DNA of 64,000 nucleotides, taken from the NCBI RefSeq assembly GCF_009914755.1, contig NC_060930.1; one strand, given 5' to 3'. A model generated the notes under the pieces. That model was not told the origin of the DNA and did not search any database. It was given only the letters and a program-made list of their open reading frames with translations. A program made the translations under genes and the position numbers. This document shows positions 25,626 to 59,688 of the stretch, one piece after another. How positions within the stretch are numbered: the first letter of the stretch is position 1; each line of letters begins with the position of its first letter. The DNA is from the human T2T-CHM13v2.0 reference genome, Homo sapiens.

Positions 25626-25876
25626 TGTGGCTAATTCAATCTAAAACCGTGTAGCTTTCCTGTCTGGGTAGATATATATATTAGCTTTTACTTATGAATT
25701 AGGCAATTTCTCTCTCAGAATTGAAACAGAGGAAGTAAGGAGAGATTTCCCTGGACTTACTAGGTAAGATCTAGAAGACAAAGATGGAGGAATAGAGTTG
25801 GACAAAAATATGTATGGGTGTGATCTTGGTCTGTGAGTGATGACTGGCCTGTAAGTGGAAAAATTAAGAAAATCAG
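25626..25876 (+). repeat. Donor arm of inverted duplication 1
   Basis: Reverse complement aligns to 28453-28705 plus 29015-29048, about 25 mismatches in about 250 bp by hand. Confidence 0.93.
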
Positions 25877-26481: not shown

Positions 26482-27342
26482 CCAATGAGCACACATGGAC
26501 ACAGGGAGGGGAACTCACGCACTGGAGCCTGTCAGGGAGGCGGGTTGCGGAGGGAAAGGGAGAGCTCAAGATAAATAGCTAATGCATGCTGGGCTTAATA
26601 CCTTAGGCAATGGTGAAGCGGCTACGTTACCTGGGGTATATATCCTGGGGTTCGTTGTGGTGCGCCAGGAAAATTTAGGACACAGACACACATGAGGAGT
26701 TTAGGAGCAGAGGTTTAATAGGCAGAAGAGAAAAGGAAGATAAACAGCTCTCTCTATAGGGAGAGGGGTCTCCGAGCGGAAAGGACCCAGCCAGCGGTAA
26801 ATGTGCCAGGTTTTACAGTCAGATTTGAGGACGTGGTGTCTGATTTACATAGGACTCACAGATTGGCTCGATTAGGTACGATGTTTACATAGTGCATGGG
26901 GAAGGCTGGTTCCCCGCCCTAATCTTATTATGCAAATGGGCTTTCCAGTTCATTGGGGACATCCTGTCTGCTCCTCACTGTACACATGGCTGACAAAGAG
27001 AAGGGAAGATGGAGCTGCCATCTGAACATGTCTAGTCCCTAGTTCCTGCCAGGATTCACCCATGCAAGCTCCCAGCTTGCTTATTTATGTCTGCAGCTTG
27101 ACTTTACAGGCTACTCTGTTAGAACATGATTTTGGGCTGCTTTTCATTAAAAAAAAAAAAAAGGTCTTACCGTGGACTCCCATAACCCTTACTATCTGCC
27201 TAAGTGATTTCTTCTTAACTCCTATATCAATGGGCTGACAGGTGCAGCAAACCACCATGGCACACGTTTACCTATGTAACAAACCTGCACATCCTGCACA
27301 TGTATCCTGGAACTTAAAATTAAATTAAAAAATTAAAAAAAA
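26482..27342 (+). mobile_element. L1PA (older subfamily) 3' end, interrupted
   Basis: cacatggacacagggagggg...gcagcaaaccaccatggcacacgtttacctatgtaacaaacctgcac; TSD aaaaaagcagttct. Confidence 0.92.
26614..27229 (-). mobile_element. ERV1 solo LTR, LTR9 family
   Basis: 616 bp, TG...CA; minus strand starts tgatataggagttaagaagaaatcacttaggcagatag; 4-bp TSD atgg. Confidence 0.85.
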
Positions 27343-27706
27343 AAAGCAGTTCTTGGGCCCCATTCCAGACCTCTTGAATCAGAAACTTGGGAAGGAGGGT
27401 TCAGTAATCTGTGTTTTAATACATCCTCCTGGGGATTGTGATGCAAGCTCAGTATTGAGAACCACCGAGTAATGTGTGAATGAGGTCAGGAGAGCTAAAG
27501 AAGTAGGCTAAGGGGAGAAGTCAATTCAGGCTAATTCACTCCAAAACACCAACGTTATTATATATCTGAAAGAAAATTGAAAGGAATCTTAAGAATGATC
27601 TTCCTCAGGGTTAGGAAATAAACTAAACACAGCCTGAGGAACAGTGGGAAAGGATGGTGGATACTACCACCAATTTTCTCTTGGGGTTGAAGCTGGAAGT
27701 GTTAAT

Positions 27707-28452: not shown

Positions 28453-29048
28453 CTAATTTCTTAATTTTTCCACTTACAGACCAGTAATCTACTCACAGAC
28501 CAAGATACCTGCATCTGTATTATCACACTCAGCCATAATTTTGTCCAACTCTATTCTTCCATTTTTATCTTCTAGATCTTACCTAGTCAATCCAGGAAAA
28601 TCTCTCCTTACACCCTCTGTCTGTTTCAATTCTGAGGGAGAAATTGCCTAATTGGTAAGTAAAAGCTAGTATATATATTTATCTACTCAGACAGGAAAGC
28701 TACATATTTTTTATTATTTTATTTTATTATTTTTTTGAGACAGTCTCATTCTGTGGCCCAGGCTGGAGTGCACTGGTGACATCTCGGCCTACTGCCACCT
28801 CCGTCTCCCAGGTTGAAGCAATTCTCCTGCCTCAGCCTCCCAAGTAGCTGAAATTACAGGTGCCCGTCACCACACTCCGCTAATTTTTGTATTTTTAGTA
28901 AAGACAGGATTTCATCATGTTGGCAAGGCTGGTCTCGAACTGACCTCAAGTGATCCACCCGCCTCGGCTTCCCAAAGTGCTGGGATTACAGGTGTGAGCC
29001 ACCGTGCCCGTCCAGAAAGCTACATGTTTTTAGACTGAAATACCCACA
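28453..29048 (-). repeat. Inserted arm of inverted duplication 1 (contains an Alu)
   Basis: Inverted copy of 25626-25876. Confidence 0.93.
28706..29013 (-). mobile_element. AluS
   Basis: Full Alu; TSD gaaagctacat at 28695 and 29015. Confidence 0.97.
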
Positions 29049-35919: not shown

Positions 35920-36521
35920 AGGAGGCAAAGATTTGTGGCAGATGAAATCAAAGCTGAATTGAGAACATTATTAACGAAAATTAATCTCTAAGCTCTCCTT
36001 CATTCCCTTTTCTCTAGACTAGCATGGTTTCTTTCTTTCTATATAGCCATTTTAATATTCAGGCACAATTTTCCTCTTAATATTCAACTATTGTTAGCAT
36101 GATACTTATATTTTTTATAGTATTTACAAGGTCTTTTAAATTAGTCTTTTTCACTGAACATTTATTTTTAAAATAATGTTTTTATTATGAAAAAATTATA
36201 TGATCATTATAGAAAATTTGGAAGCAAGTGGCAGTGACAAAACGTAATAATATATTAAGTTAATGATAGATACGAAATTTCTATAGCCCAGTTCAGGCCT
36301 CAATTCATCAATAAGGTTGCTTAGGGCCCAAAAGATTTTTTATTGTAGGTGTATTGCTATTATTGCATTTACCATGTTTTAAAAAATCAAATCATTACCC
36401 GTAGTCTCATTCAAGAGCAGGTGCACTTTCTTACTCATTTTTCTCCGTAAGTTTCTTTTAATCATCAGTTTTTTGCAGCTTCTTTGAGGTATAATTGACA
36501 AATATTAAAATCCACATATTT

Positions 36522-36805
36522 GTTTATTTTTATTTTGACTTTTTTATTTTTTAATTTATTTTTTCTTTTCATAGGTTTTGGGGGAGCAGGTGGTGTTTGG
36601 TTACATGAATAAGTTCTTTAGTGGTGATTTGTGAGATTTTGGTGCACCCGTCATCCAAGCAGTATACACTGTACCCTATTTGTAGTCTTTTATCCCTCAC
36701 TCCCTTTCCAGCTTCCCCATCACAGAGTCCCCAAAGTCCATTGTATCATTCTAATGCTTTTGCATCCTCATAGCTTAGCTTCCGAGTGAGAACATACGAT
36801 GTTTC
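36522..36805 (-). mobile_element. L1PB1 3' end
   Basis: caggtggtgtttggttacatgaataagttctttagtggtg; TSD aaatccacatattt at 36508 and 36806. Confidence 0.92.
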
Positions 36806-37062
36806 AAATCCACATATTTAAAGTGAACAATTTGATGAGTTTGAAATACATTTATATGTATCTGCGAAACCTTTACCCAAATTGGGTTAATTATCACCTG
36901 CTTCTCGCTTCTTCAGGCAACCACTGATTTCTGTCACTATAGATTAGTTTGCATTTTTGAGAATTTTATGTGAATGGAATCTTATTTTTTCTAACCTCTT
37001 TCTCTCAGAATAATTTTTTAGAGATTCCTCTATGTTGTTTTGTATATTTATAGCTCATTACC

Positions 37063-37232
37063 TTTTTTTTTTATTTGAAACAGGGCCTTGTTCTGTTGCC
37101 TCCACCTCCCGGGTTCAAGCAATTCTCCTGCCTCAGCCACCTGAGTAGGTGGGACTACAGGCACGCACCACCACGCCTGGCTAATTTTTGTGTTTTTGGA
37201 AGAGACGGGGTTTCACCATGTTGGCCAGGCTG
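37063..37232 (-). mobile_element. Truncated Alu
   Basis: Partial Alu; TSD agctcatt(a/-)ccttttt. Confidence 0.9.
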
Positions 37233-38814
37233 AGCTCATTCCTTTTTATTGCTGAGTAAGAATATGCTACAATTTTTTATCCATTTATCTATTGATGTAC
37301 ATTTGGCTTGTTTCTAGTTTTTGGCTACTACAAGTAAAGCTGCTATGAACAGTCATGTATATATTGTGTGGACATACACTTTCATTTCTCGTGGATAAAT
37401 AGCTAGGAGTAGAATGGTTAGGTCATATGGTGACTGCATATTTACATTTTAAGAAATTGTTTCTCAAAGAGGTTGAACAATTTTACATTTTCACTAGTAG
37501 TGTATGAAATTTCTGGTTGCTCCACATCCTTGAAAACACTTGATATAATCAGTCTTTTCAATTTTAGCCATTCTAGTGGTTATGTAGTGGTGTAGTTGAA
37601 CATTTTTTTCATGTGCTTATTTGCTATTTGTATATCTTTTTTGAAGTGTTAATTAAAATATTCTGCCCATTTTTAATAAAATTGTGGTGGTGGTGTTAGA
37701 GTTTTTAAAAAATGTATTCCAGATATCAGTCCTTTAACAGATACATTATTTGTAAAGATTTTCTCCCAGTCTAGGGTTTCTCATTTCCTTTTTAAAATAG
37801 TGTCTTTGGATAAAGTCTAATTTATGGTTTCTTTTTATTCCTGTATCCAAATCTTTGCCAAACTAAGGTCACTATGATTTTTTTTCCTATTGTGCTCTAG
37901 AAGTTTTATAATTTTAACTCTTGTATTTAGGCTTATGTTTTATTTTGAGTTAAATTTTGTATATACTAAGCGGTAAGAATCAAGGTTCATTTTTGTGCAT
38001 ATAGATACCAAGTTGTTCCAGAACCATTTATTGAAAAGATTATTCTTTCTCTTTTAAATTGTCCTGGCACCTTTGTCAACAATCCTAAATATGTGGGTCT
38101 ATGTTCTATTCTAATTCATTTATTGATCTATTTTTATGCGAATACCACACTGTCTTGGTTAATGAAACTTTGTAAAAGCTTTGAAGTTAGGCAGTACGAA
38201 CCCTCTGGCTCTTTTTTCAAAGTTGTTTTTCCAAAGAATTTTCTACAGAGTCAGTCGTGTTATCTGCAAATAAAGCCAGTTTTATTTCTTCTTTTCAAAT
38301 CTGGATGCTTTTCAATTTTATTTATTTATTTCCTATTGCATAGAATAAAATCTCCAGCACTGGATACACATGTTCTCTGTCATAAAGAGAGGTTATAATT
38401 CTCAACTAGAGGAAAGATTTATGAAATGTTCCTTGGTGTATAGCATTTTAGATTTCAGTTATAGAATGAGATTGTGTGCTCAGGATTACCTGTCTGCAAT
38501 GCCTGATATTTTCCTCTTGGGCAGGCATCCAACTAGTATCTGAGAGGGAAATCCAGTAGCCAGAAGGAAGGAATCTGCTTTACATTAATTCTCAGGACAA
38601 TATTATTTGACTATATACAGATAGGATAATGATGACATGATAATTATAGGCAGGAAAGCTATGAAAAATAAAGCTTGAAGTAGGATCTGAACACCTCGTT
38701 TTTGAAGGGTATCTCCAAATATTTTATTGGAATACCAGATATATGAATTTCTCTTAAGTTCATAGGCTTCAAACGTTCTAACAAAGCACAGTCCTGAAAA
38801 AATAACTTGAGGGG

Positions 38815-39040
38815 CTTCACCGAAGAAGATATACAAATGGCAAATAAGCACATGAAAAAAATGTTCAACCACACCAAACATTAGGGTAATGCAAAGTAAA
38901 ATCACAATGAGACATTACTACATACCCACTAGAATGGCTAAAATTAAAAAGACTGACCACATCAAGTGTTTTTAAGGATGTGGAGCAACCAGAAATATCA
39001 TACACTACTGGTATGTAAAATTGTTCAACCTCTTTGAGAA
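38815..39040 (+). repeat. Inverted copy of L1 segment 37461-37646 (inverted duplication 2)
   Basis: About 90% or more identical to the upstream segment; the terminal 28 bp are identical. Confidence 0.85.
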
Positions 39041-39629
39041 GTAGTACACATATGCACAGAGTCATATTAAAATGTTACCTATGCAACTGTCCTATACATT
39101 AAAGTTATTAAAAGATCTGAACACTTAGGAAAAGAGGACTGAATAAGCAATTAAGTATTTTTTTTCTTTTCCTGCAGGTGAAATTTCTCAGGATTAAAAA
39201 ATTCTCTAAAAACATCCTAAAGGAAATTTTTTTTCAACAATTTTTCTTCTATGAATTCACTTTTCAGTTCACATTTCTGGAGAAAAAAACTCAGTGAAAA
39301 ATTGATGAAAAATGTTCATCTAAATGGCAAAATATTCTAAGCTAAGCAAAAAGCATTTTTTAGATGCCAGTGATTGAGTTACCAAGGGTGGGTATTGGTT
39401 GCGTAGGATGGAGTGAGCCCAGGAGGTCCCGGCTAGGAGAGTATCACTACTGACCCCATCATATGCTGGGATTGTTGGGTTTGCCTAAGAGCAGCGGGGT
39501 TTCAGTTTATAGTACCTATCTCTCCCCACCCCAATCCTTTTGTGATCAATAGAATATATTAAAATGACAGCTTGCAAACTATGAAAAAGCTTGCAAACCT
39601 CACAGAAGAGAAGTCTTTAAAAACTATTA

Positions 39630-39742
39630 AAAATTTTAAAGACACAGGGTCTTTCCATGTTGCTTAGGCTGGTCTCAAATTCCTGGGCTTAAGTGATCGT
39701 CCTGCTGTGGCCTCTGTGTAGCTGCTGTGCCATTGTGCATGG
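39630..39742 (-). mobile_element. FLAM or AluJ monomer
   Basis: gacacagggtctttccatgttgcttaggctggtctcaaattcctgggc. Confidence 0.8.
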
Positions 39743-39858
39743 TGAAGATAAGTTTTTTAAAATTATTATTTTTGTTTTATTATACAAGTAGTATGAGTTC
39801 TTTGGGAAATCAATTTAAAAGCATATTTCGCTATCCAAGTAAACATAAAAATATGCAC

Positions 39859-40167
39859 TTTATTTTTATTTTTATTTTTTTTTTGAGATAGAGTCTCACT
39901 CTGTTGCTCAGGCTGGAGTACAGTGACGAGATCTCAGCTCACTAGCAAACTCTGCTTCCTGGGTTTAAGCGATTCTCGTGCCTCAGCCTCCGGAGTAGCT
40001 GGGATTACAGGCATGTGCCACCACATCTGGCTAATTTTTGTAGTTTTAACAGAGACAGGGTTTCACCATGTTGGCCAGGCTGGTCACGAACTCCTGACTT
40101 CAGGTGATCCAACTGCCTCAGCTTCCTAAAGTGCTGGGATTACAGGCATGAGCCATTGCGCCTGGAC
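39859..40167 (-). mobile_element. AluS
   Basis: Full Alu. Confidence 0.97.
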
Positions 40168-40189
40168 TACATATTATTTTTTTTAACGT

Positions 40190-42110
<1,921 letters not shown>

Positions 42111-44699: not shown

Positions 44700-45065
44700 C
44701 AGATGCTCCTTGCCTTCGAGGGGTTACATCTCAATAAACCCATTGCAAATTGAAACTATTATAAGGAAAAATGCATTTAATACACCTATAGGTTTATCAA
44801 ATGTCATAGCTTAGCCTAGCTGACTTTCAACATACTCAGAACACTTATGTTAGCCTGCAGCTGGGCCAAATCATCTAACACAAAGCCCATTTTACGATAA
44901 AGTGTTGAACATCTCGTGTAATTTATTAAATAACATACTGAAAGTGAAAAACAGAATGGCTGTATGAGTACTCAAAGTATGGTATTTATTGAATGTGTAT
45001 TGCTTTTGCACCATTAAAAATGAAAAATAATTGTAAGCCAAACCATTGTAGTCGAGGATCATTTG
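44700..45065. mobile_element. MER47A (TcMar-Tigger MITE)
   Basis: cagatgctcc...aaatgcatttaatacacc...gcaccatt...gtcgaggatcatttg; TA TSD. Confidence 0.9.
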
Positions 45066-45149
45066 TATATGCTGTGGTAAATAGGTCTCCAGGCTTAGAT
45101 CTCAAAGAATTCCAGAGTTCTAGGAGCCTTTAGGAATAGCTACCTAGTT

Positions 45150-45367
45150 CAGGGGTTGGGAAACTGCAATGTGGAGCCAATTCAGCCTGCGACTTGTGTT
45201 TATAAACCAAATTTTGTTGGAAAACAGCCATGCTTATCTATGTATTTATCCATGTTGCTTTTGTGTTACAATGGCAGAGGTGAGTAGTTGTGTCATTGAG
45301 CATATGATGTGCAAAGCTGAAATTATTGACTCTCTGGCTCTATACAGAAAAAGTTTCCTGACCCTTG
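45150..45367 (-). mobile_element. MER58A MITE
   Basis: caggggttgggaaact...tacagaaaaagtttcctgacccttg. Confidence 0.88.
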
Positions 45368-46460: not shown

Positions 46461-47949
46461 GTATGTGTGAGAAACGTTATGTAATGAAAAGATAATTGAT
46501 GACACACACTTCCAGAGGGTGCTGGCGAGATTGATTCAAAAGCACACGGCTAGGGCACTGAGTAACGAGAAAGAAGTTGCAGATGAAGGATAAATGGACA
46601 GGAATAAGAAAGGGCTTCATCATTTAAGAATCTGAAAGAGACAAAAAGGTAAGGAAGGGACTAAATGGGAAGAAAGGGAGAAAACAAACCTTTTCTAATC
46701 TCATTAGCTTCACTCTTCCAATGTCCTCCCCACCTCTTCTCAAGGCTCCAGAGAATTTGTCTCCAAATGAAGCCCATTCTCTCTTCTTTCTTGTTAATAC
46801 TGCCTCCTCTTCTCCCTCTCTTCTTACTACTTTCCCTCCTTAGGCCTACTTACATCTTCTTTCCTCATCAATTCAAAGCTTTCAATTGGTCTTTCTTAGT
46901 AAGACATCTCTTTCTAGATTTAGACATATTTTAGGAATTATGAGGACAGAAAAGCAATGCAGGGGAATATGGGGAAGAGGAAGGAACCTGTAATTTATGA
47001 ATCACTTTTTTTTTTTCACATCTCCTAGGATCTTTACCTAGACCTTTCATTTAATCACAGACACCTTCCTTTAAAATTTTAGATACCCGTCCAAGGGTTC
47101 ACTAGCAAAGCTGTCGCATGAATTCCAGTCCTCTGGTTTCAGAACCCATATACTGTGCTGACTTTTTTATTTTTATAACATCATGTTGCCTTTCTATAGA
47201 GGTAGTTCCTTCTTCTAATTATGAAAGGCTCGTGCTTATGTGTATTCTTATGTTTAATGCCTAGTTTTCATTACTTGAAGAGATTTTGGCAAGATTTAGT
47301 ACTTTTTAAATATATTTAATTGCACAAGTAATACAGGTCCACAGGAAAAACGATTGAACAATCGTGATAGGCAAAATGAAGAAAATGAAAAATTATCCAG
47401 CATCCTTTGTGCCACGGCTTTCAAAATCAGTAAGATGAAAACCAATCCTCCTTCATTACAAAGTATTTTGAATAAGAATATAAGCTTAAGTGCTCATTCA
47501 GCAGCAGACAGACATGGGCTAATAGCTCAATGGCCTAACATTTCATCCCCGGACCAAAGCATTAGTTTTAGGCCTTCTTGTGTGGGATCTGTGGATTGTT
47601 TTATTTTCTTTCCTAATGAGCAATTGGACTAAAGGATCAGGTTTAATTATAACTAGAGTCCCTTTCTGTTTGTACATCACTGCAGACCTAATTGTAGGCT
47701 GGCATCCCTGCTGCGGCCTGAGTGGTCATTAGCTTGCTGATAATGAACTATGCTTGTCAACATGGCCTCATTAACCATTGTTTTTTTTTCAGCAACATGG
47801 TTGTAAGGGTTTGAACTTGTGATTGAGGATGTGCTGGACTCATCGTGCTGAGAGAAACTTGTCCAGTTACGTGGTTAGAACCAAAGAGTTTTGGCTCAGA
47901 CAAGTGATGCTATCCAAGGATAACTGGATCTATGCTGCAGCCTCAGGAA

Positions 47950-48120
47950 TGTGACATGTCAGGAAGAACCCTGACCTGAGAGTTAGAGAGTGAGATTCTT
48001 ATCCCAGCTCTGTGCTGTGTAGCCCTGTGACTTTGGGCTAATTGTATCACTTTCTGTCCTCTAGTTTTCTCACCTGAAAATAAGAAGGTTCTACTCAATG
48101 ATTGGTGAGATAACTTTTTG
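47950..48120 (+). mobile_element. MIR SINE
   Basis: atcccagctctg...ctgtgactttgggc...agttttctcacctgaaaat. Confidence 0.75.
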
Positions 48121-48202
48121 TCAATAAAAATAATTTTGCATGAAGCTTGTGCAAACATTTTTTTCCTTTTTTTTAATCAGTGATTTTATCTTCTTAGGTT
48201 AT

Positions 48203-48218
48203 ACACTAGAGGGCAGTG
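48203..48218 (+). promoter_or_regulatory. Candidate CTCF site
   Basis: ACACTAGAGGGCAGTG matches 13/14 of the core CCACTAGAGGGCAG. Confidence 0.5.
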
Positions 48219-48599
48219 GTACATTAATATTATAAACTATGAATGCACTTGGTACTGCATTCAGCTGAAAGTCATAGACATTTGAATTAGGAAGGGATCT
48301 TATCTATTTCTCATTCAAAATATAGGAAGCTGTTCTGTAGTGTCCCCAACAGATATTCTTCATGACCCTGTTGAACATTCCTAGTGTTGGGAACTTTGCT
48401 ACTTCGCAAGGCAGCTTCTTTTTCTTGTTAGTTCTACTTATTAGAAAGTTATTTCTTCAATTAGTGAAAAACCTGCTTTCCTATAACTTTTATTGCTGGT
48501 CTTGCAACATGGCAGAAAACTGTATCGCCTTCTTGTAATGGCATTTCACATCTTTTATAGAGTCGTATTACTGAATAACTGTATTTACCATTTATTGGT

Positions 48600-59435: not shown

Positions 59436-59688
59436 CACTGCATGTTCTCACTTATAAGTAGGAGCTGAACAATGAGAACACATGGATACAGGGAGGGGAA
59501 CAACACACACTGGGGCCTATCCAGAGGGTAATGGCGGGAAGGGAGAGCATCAGGAAAAATAGCTAATGCATGCTGGGCTTAATACCTAGGTGATGGGTTG
59601 ATAGGTGCAGCAAACCACCATGGTACACATTTACCTATGTAACAAACCTTCACATCCCACCCTTGTATCCCGGAACTTAAAAAAAAAT
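59436..59688 (+). mobile_element. L1PA (older subfamily) 3' end
   Basis: gcatgttctcacttataagt...gcagcaaaccaccatgg...ggaacttaaaa; imperfect TSD aaa(g/t)gt(g/a)tttggtYtct. Confidence 0.93.

What the first reader, a model, noticed from the sequence alone, without database searches (positions are those of the whole stretch)
37461..39040. Second inverted duplication hidden inside L1 annotation
Seen: the sense 'L1 fragment' at 38815-39040 is the reverse complement of 37461-37646. The 28 bp ttctcaaagaggttgaacaattttacat are identical and overall identity is about 90% or higher. Both copies share departures from the old-L1 consensus as I recall it (ttctcaaagagg, atttctggttgct, aaaacacttgat, gttgaacattttttt). 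The upstream copy has lost about 40 bp that the downstream copy keeps. Independent L1M copies would be far more diverged from each other. Inference: same geometry as duplication 1 (donor left, inverted copy 1-3 kb to the right) and similar divergence, about 10 kb away. This suggests a locus prone to fold-back template switching, or one complex ancestral event. Repeat masking would hide it.
Basis: partly seen in the sequence, partly recalled or inferred. Interest (0 to 1): 0.72.

Follow-up and report, generated by a model that had tools for sequence, protein, structure and literature searches.

The report
Old inverted copy of L1 piece
A roughly 230-base piece of an ancient, dead L1 element was copied long after the element landed and pasted backwards 1.2 kb away into unique DNA; it is a real but ordinary scar of DNA repair or replication with no sign of function.

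Summary
37461-37646 and 38815-39040 are an inverted pair, 171 of 182 aligned bases identical (94%), with indels of 3, 41 and 4 bp. In the whole T2T assembly each arm's best non-self match is the other (180 bits against 161 and 113). Twenty-eight other L1 copies are only 67-79% identical to either arm.

The left arm sits inside a continuous, colinear antisense old L1, about 36478-38360. The right arm is an isolated internal ORF2 piece, with single-copy DNA on both sides and sharp homology ends.

The arms share 21 departures from the majority of the 28 other copies, against 8 private to one arm and 1 private to the other. They are sisters on a long shared stem. So the copy was made after most of the L1's decay, roughly 14-32 My ago.

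Independent L1 insertions and L1 twin priming are rejected. The mechanism, fold-back synthesis at a break or a replicative template switch, is inferred only.

Whether the locus is prone to such events stays open. Interest is low: a known kind of event, apparently neutral.

The parts
37461..37646 (-). Arm A, the source copy. It is L1 ORF2 sequence (sense on the - strand) inside the continuous host L1. It has since lost 41 bp and 3 bp.
   Evidence: pairing with B. (colinear with 28 L1 copies on both sides of the arm). (polarity of the deletions).
38815..39040 (+). Arm B, the inverted copy. It is an isolated 226-bp internal L1 ORF2 piece, about ORF2p residues 1080-1155, with no L1 on either side. 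It has since lost 4 bp.
   Evidence: L1 likeness only at 38800-39049; 26 of 28 L1 alignments start at 38810-38824 and none ends beyond 39048; library copy L010 reads as ORF2p residues 1067-1226, E 2e-39..
36478..38360 (-). Host old L1 element. Its 3' end is at the left and its truncated 5' end near 38360. It is interrupted by a younger L1 3' piece (about 36520-36800) and a partial Alu (37066-37243). The ends are approximate.
   Evidence: antisense, colinear likeness to L1 copies from about 36900 to 38360. (reading of 36300-37300; the 3'-end assignment left of 36900 rests on my reading of the sequence and on recall). (nearest genomic copies of 37647-38360 only 68-76% identical).
38361..38814 (.). 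Single-copy DNA between the host L1's 5' end and arm B. With 37647-38360 it makes up the 1168-bp spacer between the arms.
   Evidence: 38371-38814 finds only itself in the assembly (1 candidate, 1 match); no L1 likeness.
39041..39600 (.). Single-copy DNA to the right of arm B.
   Evidence: finds only itself; no likeness to the DNA beside arm A (64 of 500 shuffles reach the score).
38876..38916 (+). A 41-bp L1 stretch kept in B and deleted from A, at about 37588-37590 in A.
   Evidence: alignment. (median 28 of 28 other copies have these columns).

Best explanation
An old L1 element inserted here on the minus strand (about 36478-38360) and decayed for most of its life. Much later, roughly 14-32 million years ago, about 230 bp of its ORF2 region was copied. 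The copy was inserted in reverse orientation 1.2 kb to the right, into single-copy DNA 454 bp beyond the L1's truncated 5' end.

Both copies then decayed separately. The source lost 41 and 3 bp, and the copy lost 4 bp.

The most likely way, which is inferred and not shown, runs in three steps.
1. A break or stalled fork occurred at 38814|39041.
2. The free 3' end of the top strand folded back onto the same strand about 1.2 kb upstream, or switched to a template of the same polarity behind the fork. It then copied from 37646 down to 37461.
3. The lengthened end was released and joined to the other side.

This gives exactly the observed order: the left end of B matches the right end of A. The pair has no detectable function. 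It is a neutral scar.
For: Shown:
- The arms are 171 of 182 identical.
- Each arm is the other's best non-self match in the assembly. B finds A at 180 bits against 161 for the next hit, with 40 scored of 4807 candidates. A finds B at 180 against 113, with 40 scored of 1072.
- 28 other L1 copies are 72.8-78.8% identical to B and 66.8-76.5% to A. Among themselves they average 73% with a maximum of 83.9%.
- Counted against the majority of the 28 other copies, 21 departures are shared by both arms, 8 are private to A, 1 is private to B and 2 sites differ in both. With a majority of at least 0.7 the counts are 12, 6 and 0.
- A and B are sisters. FastTree gives support 0.999, stem 0.178 and tips 0.065 and 0.012, against a median tip of 0.169 for the others. 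IQ-TREE gives UFboot 100 and stem 0.149.
- The host L1 is old. Its body at 37647-38360 finds nothing better than 76% in the assembly.
- A is colinear with the rest of the L1 on both sides. B's L1 likeness ends where the A-B likeness ends.
- B's flanks are single copy and unlike A's flanks (64 and 56 of 500 shuffles reach the scores).
- Each copy has deletions of its own relative to the other 28 copies.

Inferred:
- The date. K2P is 0.064. Rates of 1.0-2.2e-9 per site per year are recalled general values.
- The fold-back or template-switch route. It rests on geometry and on the closeness of the template in cis. Fold-back templated inverted insertions at breaks are described in yeast (PMC11724301, abstract read).
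Against: - No microhomology is visible at either junction (reading), so nothing in the sequence points positively to fold-back priming. After about 6% divergence this is weak either way.
- The yeast fold-back inserts in the abstract read are mostly 5-34 bp, far shorter than 230 bp.
- The 'majority' used to call derived sites comes from copies picked for likeness to B. They are not a curated subfamily consensus, so some 'shared derived' sites may be subfamily differences. This also skews the private counts towards A.
- Only 40 of 4807 and 40 of 1072 candidates were scored in the genome searches, so a closer third copy is not strictly excluded.
- No other species could be examined.
Confidence: 0.85

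Rival explanations
1. Both arms arose at the moment of L1 insertion, from one L1 RNA, by twin priming or a related insertion-time inversion. On the minus strand the order is flank, inverted piece, spacer, sense L1, tail, which recalls a 5'-inverted L1. The high likeness would then need later gene conversion between the arms.
For: The overall order and orientation resemble a 5'-inverted L1 (reading; the twin-priming layout is recalled, and only search listings were seen).
Against: - 454 bp of single-copy DNA lies between the inverted piece and the L1's 5' end.
- The inverted piece repeats sequence 714-899 bp inside the sense segment, not sequence 5' of its truncation point.
- The arms are far younger than the element. 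Tips are 0.012-0.065, against a shared stem of 0.15-0.18 and a median tip of 0.15-0.17 for other copies. The L1 body is no more than 76% identical to any other copy.
- No target-site duplication was found around the composite: 499 of 500 shuffles reach the score after B. At this age that test is weak.
Confidence: 0.05
2. Two independent insertions of the same old L1 subfamily that happen to lie head to head. The shared departures would be subfamily-diagnostic sites.
For: Old L1 fragments are very common. The first look of the genome search returned 4807 candidates for this 226-bp stretch.
Against: - A-B identity is 94%, against a maximum of 83.9% among 378 pairs of the other 28 copies.
- The arms are reciprocal best hits with a wide margin.
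- B is an internal ORF2 piece with no 3' end, no tail and no further L1 on either side.
- At 10 of the 21 shared sites, at most 3 of the 28 other copies carry the A/B state.
Confidence: 0.02
3. An RNA-derived patch. A transcript crossing the L1 was reverse transcribed and the cDNA was used to mend a break 1.2 kb away, as in class 2 templated sequence insertions.
For: B has no tail and no target-site duplication. That fits the class 2 description: no TSD or poly(A), with end-joining features at the junctions (PMC5110952, abstract and section 9 read).
Against: - That class is described as templated from distant regions. Here the template is 1.2 kb away in cis.
- A second pair with the same geometry lies 10 kb off. 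This favours a DNA-templated, proximity-driven route.
- No annotated transcript covers 37461-37646 (hub table).
Confidence: 0.08

Closest known systems
[quoted passage not shown]
   Same: An inverted copy of nearby sequence from the same chromosome is inserted at a break. [quoted passage not shown] The orientation and order of the arms here match this.
   Different: Those inserts are mostly 5-34 bp, use microhomology next to the break and lie close to it. Here about 230 bp was copied from 1.2 kb away, and no microhomology can be seen.
Short-range template-switch mutations in human and great-ape genomes (PMC5453318 and PMC7954356; search listing and abstract starts only)
   Same: Replication briefly switches to a nearby template of the opposite sense and returns, leaving a reverse-complement copy. 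This creates or extends inverted repeats.
   Different: By recall, those events span tens of bases within a very short range. This one is about 230 bp with a 1.2-kb spacer, and it is an insertion, not a replacement.
Class 2 templated sequence insertions (PMC5110952; abstract and section 9 read)
   Same: A patch of genomic sequence is inserted without a target-site duplication or poly(A), as expected for repair of a break.
   Different: Those templates are distant and thought to be RNA-derived. Here the template is next door in cis and in inverted orientation.
L1 5' inversion by twin priming (recalled; search listing only)
   Same: An inverted L1 piece lies 5' of a sense, 5'-truncated L1.
   Different: Here there is a unique 454-bp spacer, the inverted piece duplicates internal sequence, and the arms are much younger than the element.
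Large fold-back inverted duplications of human chromosomes (PMC3907307; search listing only)
   Same: Inverted duplication with a short single-copy spacer between the arms.
   Different: Those are kilobase-to-megabase terminal rearrangements with disease effects. This is a 230-bp interstitial insert, fixed and ancient.

Membership tests
Post-insertion local inverted duplication (templated insertion) of repeat-derived DNA | The two copies are closer to each other than either is to any other member of the repeat family | tested here: met
   171 of 182 identical, against 66.8-78.8% to 28 other copies. Reciprocal best genome-wide hits.
Post-insertion local inverted duplication (templated insertion) of repeat-derived DNA | Shared derived substitutions, and a shared stem on a tree of family members | tested here: met
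   21 shared sites, 8 private to A and 1 private to B. FastTree support 0.999 and stem 0.178. UFboot 100. Caveat: the majority comes from 28 copies chosen by likeness to B, not from a curated consensus.
Post-insertion local inverted duplication (templated insertion) of repeat-derived DNA | One copy in its original context, the other an isolated piece with sharp ends in unrelated DNA | tested here: met
Post-insertion local inverted duplication (templated insertion) of repeat-derived DNA | An empty site at the recipient position in lineages that split off before the event | not testable with these tools
   No other primate or mammalian genome was on hand.
L1 5' inversion by twin priming | The inverted segment abuts the sense segment, with at most a small overlap or deletion at the junction | tested here: not met
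   454 bp of single-copy DNA lies between them. The inverted piece repeats sequence 714-899 bp inside the sense segment.
L1 5' inversion by twin priming | Both segments date from the insertion | tested here: not met
   Tips are 0.012-0.065, against a stem of 0.15-0.18. The element's body is no more than 76% identical to any other copy.
L1 5' inversion by twin priming | A target-site duplication around the whole composite | tested here: inconclusive
   No match above chance. A short duplication of this age may have decayed.
Ordinary L1 retrotransposition (independent insertion) for arm B | A 3' end of the element with a poly(A) tail, truncation from the 5' side only | tested here: not met
   B is an internal ORF2 piece, about residues 1080-1155 of 1275. 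There is no L1 likeness beyond 39048 and no A-run after 39040.
Class 1 templated sequence insertion (L1 ORF2p acting in trans) | A target-site duplication of at least 5 bp and a poly(A) tract (PMC5110952 section 9) | tested here: not met
   No A-run at 39041 onwards and no T-run before 38815.
Inversion with staggered breaks leaving inverted duplications at its ends | The DNA between the two copies is inverted relative to its ancestral order | tested here: not met
   The host L1 runs colinearly through arm A into the spacer, from 37646 on to 38360.

The most novel reading that the evidence does not exclude
The second pair is 25650-25871 / 28457-28704, unique sequence with two copies genome-wide. 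Both pairs are inverted copies of about 230-250 bp, placed 1.2-2.6 kb to the right of their partner, and their divergence is indistinguishable. They could come from a single multi-switch replication accident in an anthropoid ancestor, or from a small region that repeatedly makes fold-back copies. In the second case the region would be a natural germline hotspot for templated inverted insertion.
Probability: 0.2. Interest if true: 0.45.

Novelty: new member of a known kind. Interest (0 to 1): 0.27.

Why it matters
On its own it matters little. It is a fixed, apparently neutral scar in intergenic DNA.

It does show that repeat annotation can hide real local rearrangements. A piece labelled as an old L1 fragment can in fact be a later copy of its neighbour.

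It is also a clean, datable example of a germline templated inverted insertion much longer than the short ones studied at experimental breaks. Two such events of like size, geometry and age within 13 kb could be used to ask whether some regions are prone to fold-back copying. That needs a genome-wide count.

Tried and rejected
- **Homology beyond the arms.** Local alignments of B's flanks against the reverse complement of A's flanks are at chance. 64 and 56 of 500 shuffles reach the scores, and two control pairings give 159 and 76 of 500. An apparent extension seen in the global alignment was dropped for that reason.
- **Target-site duplications.** I compared the DNA left of the L1's 3' end with the DNA after its 5' end, before B and after B. 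Nothing was above chance: 469, 72 and 499 of 500 shuffles reach the scores.
- **Direct protein evidence that B is L1.** The read-through translation of B (stops as X) found no L1 protein in the PDB (one chance hit, E 0.35) and no Pfam family. Fifteen read-through frames of five library copies also gave no Pfam family. One library copy then matched L1 ORF2p at E 2e-39.
- **First count of derived sites.** The MAFFT alignment with both arms gave 18 shared, 11 A-only and 4 B-only sites. This was replaced because that alignment misplaced bases beside the 41-bp gap. The count uses the pairwise alignment.
- **Genome-wide baseline for local inverted low-copy pairs.** Only one 100-kb block could be fetched, too little for a rate.
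- **Earlier findings of this scan.** They were not open.
- **Staggered-break inversion model.** Rejected because the spacer is not inverted.
- **Print record for the locus.** A search for the two neighbouring lncRNA names found 4 papers, 3 of them listed. By title, none concerns structure at this locus. I made no other search for prior description.

Full report
**1. The observation**

The two stretches are an inverted pair. The repeat finder on 36500-40500 reports three collinear inverted blocks:
- 37461-37488 / 39013-39040, 28 nt, 100%
- 37493-37593 / 38912-39012, 101 nt, 90%
- 37588-37641 / 38823-38876, 54 nt, 94%

blastn of 700-bp stretches around each arm finds only these, as two segments of 116/128 and 51/54.

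A gapped global alignment gives 171 of 182 aligned columns identical (94.0%). There are 9 transitions, 2 transversions and three indels of 3, 41 and 4 bp. A MAFFT multiple alignment gave 166 of 182. It misplaced bases beside the 41-bp gap, so I use the pairwise figure.

In the window's self-comparison this pair supplies two of the four most similar matches among 241 pairs.

**2. What the two arms are**

Twenty-eight other genomic matches of arm B were fetched with 1.5 kb on each side. One of them (L010) reads through as L1 ORF2 protein, residues 1067-1226 of 1275, at E 2e-39 against solved structures. The repeat family is therefore L1 ORF2, and arm B corresponds to about residues 1080-1155. 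The label "L1M" for the host element is recalled, since no curated repeat library was on hand.

Mapped against these 28 copies, the window shows continuous antisense L1 likeness from about 36900 to 38360. It is colinear with the copies on both sides of arm A. My reading of 36300-37300 puts the element's 3' end near 36478. Two later insertions interrupt it: a younger L1 3' piece and a partial Alu.

Sense L1 likeness is confined to arm B:
- 26 of 28 alignments start at 38810-38824, and the other 2 start at 38794-38797.
- None ends beyond 39048.
- The DNA between the L1's 5' end and B (38371-38814) finds only itself in the 3.1-Gb assembly. So does the DNA to the right of B (39041-39600).
- B's flanks are not like A's flanks. 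64 and 56 of 500 shuffles reach the scores, and control pairings give 159 and 76.

So A is in its original context. B is an isolated internal piece with sharp ends, no 3' end and no tail.

**3. Are the arms closer than independent copies would be?**

Yes, by every test I could run.
- **Genome search with B.** The best non-self match is A (180 bits). The next is 161 bits, and all others are 74-82% identical. 40 were scored of 4807 candidates.
- **Genome search with A.** The best non-self match is B (180 bits against 113). 40 were scored of 1072.
- **Multiple alignment.** B is 72.8-78.8% identical to the 28 other copies and A is 66.8-76.5%. Those copies average 73% among themselves, with a maximum of 83.9%.
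- **Derived sites against the majority of the 28 copies.** 147 columns have both arms at the majority state. 21 have a shared departure, 8 are private to A, 1 is private to B, 2 differ in both and 2 have no majority. With a majority of at least 0.7 the counts are 12, 6 and 0. At 10 of the 21 shared sites, at most 3 of the 28 copies carry the arms' state.
- **Trees.** The arms are sisters. FastTree gives support 0.999, stem 0.178 and tips 0.065 and 0.012, against a median tip of 0.169 for the others. IQ-TREE gives UFboot 100 and stem 0.149.
- **Contrast.** An ordinary young repeat in the window (27200-27350) finds many copies at 88-96%. The search would therefore have shown close relatives of the arms if there were any among its best candidates.

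Caveats:
- The 28 copies were chosen by likeness to B and are not a curated consensus. This lowers B's private count and may turn some subfamily differences into "shared derived" sites.
- The genome tool scores only the best 40 candidates.

**4. History**

Each arm has deletions of its own. The 41 bp and the 3 bp missing from A are present in 27-28 of 28 other copies. The 4 bp missing from B are present in A and in 26-27 of 28. The copied tract was therefore at least 230 bp, and both arms descend from one ancestor sequence.

The host element is old. Its body finds nothing better than 76% in the assembly. The arms differ by only 6%: K2P 0.064, with a 95% interval of the raw distance of 3.1-10.6%. 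With recalled neutral rates of 1.0-2.2e-9 per site per year, this places the copying about 14-32 My ago. On the tree, the copying falls in roughly the last fifth of the element's decay.

**5. Mechanism**

What is shown is a late, local, inverted copy-and-insert event with the left arm as source.

What is inferred is the route. The order of the arms fits a 3' end at 38814 that folded back on its own strand, or switched to a template of the same polarity behind a fork. It would have copied from 37646 leftwards to 37461 and then been joined to 39041.

I see no microhomology at either junction. No tail and no target-site duplication were found.

Fold-back templated inverted inserts at breaks are described in yeast, but mostly at 5-34 bp (PMC11724301, abstract). 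Patch inserts without a target-site duplication or tail are described in humans as class 2 templated insertions. Those are said to come from distant templates, probably through RNA (PMC5110952, abstract and section 9). Closeness in cis, and a second like event nearby, make a DNA-templated route more likely here.

**6. Rivals**

- **Independent L1 insertions.** Refuted by section 3 and by B's lack of a 3' end.
- **Twin priming at insertion.** It fails on three points: the 454-bp single-copy spacer, the fact that the inverted piece repeats sequence 714-899 bp inside the sense segment, and the age of the arms. It would need later gene conversion to survive.
- **A staggered-break inversion.** Excluded because the L1 runs colinearly through arm A into the spacer.

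**7.

"Duplication 1" exists. 25650-25871 and 28457-28704 are inverted, and they are the only two copies in the assembly. The core is 203 of 222 identical, K2P 0.091. That is not distinguishable from the L1 pair (Fisher p 0.45).

Its right copy was later split by an Alu. The same roughly 15-nt word stands on both sides of the Alu, so that copy extends a little further, to about 29030.

The two pairs are not parts of one large inverted duplication. Their order along the chromosome is source 1, copy 1, source 2, copy 2.

A single 100-kb control block from another chromosome, of like G+C content (0.41 against 0.40), had no low-copy local inverted pair at 88% or more. The 64-kb window has 2. More sequence could not be fetched, so whether the locus is prone to such events stays open.

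**8. Known or new, and verdict**

The kind of event is known. This instance is, as far as one search on the neighbouring gene names shows, not described.

No annotated transcript covers the arms (hub table), and nothing suggests function.

It is an ordinary neutral scar of low general interest. The pairing with duplication 1 is the only mildly curious point.

Noticed in passing
window 25650-25871 and 28457-28704 (to about 29030 beyond the Alu): A second inverted pair, of unique sequence, with only these two copies in the whole assembly. The core is 203 of 222 identical. The right copy holds exon 28576-28654 of lncRNA LOC105374955. It was later split by an Alu at 28717-29009, whose target-site repeat stands on both sides.
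   Followed up: partly
window 36520-36800: A younger L1 3'-end piece (antisense) inserted into the 3' part of the old host L1. It is flanked by a repeated 14-nt word that looks like its target-site duplication (reading; not tested further).
   Followed up: no
window 37066-37243: A partial Alu inside the host L1. The last exon of LOC105374955 (37084-37124, hub table) lies wholly within it, so that exon is Alu-derived.
   Followed up: no
window 27200-27350 and 59593-59682: A direct pair at 88.9% that turned out to be an ordinary high-copy young repeat. 39 other places at 88-96% were scored, of 2319 candidates.
   Followed up: yes
L033-L042 (G000:C1:50000001-50100000), block positions 97182-97319 / 98975-99112, 89451-89591 / 90602-90743 and 44792-45179 / 47948-48359: The control block holds three low-copy direct local pairs at 100%, 91.5% and 88.9% identity, and no inverted one. 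They may be LTR pairs or small tandem duplications.
   Followed up: no
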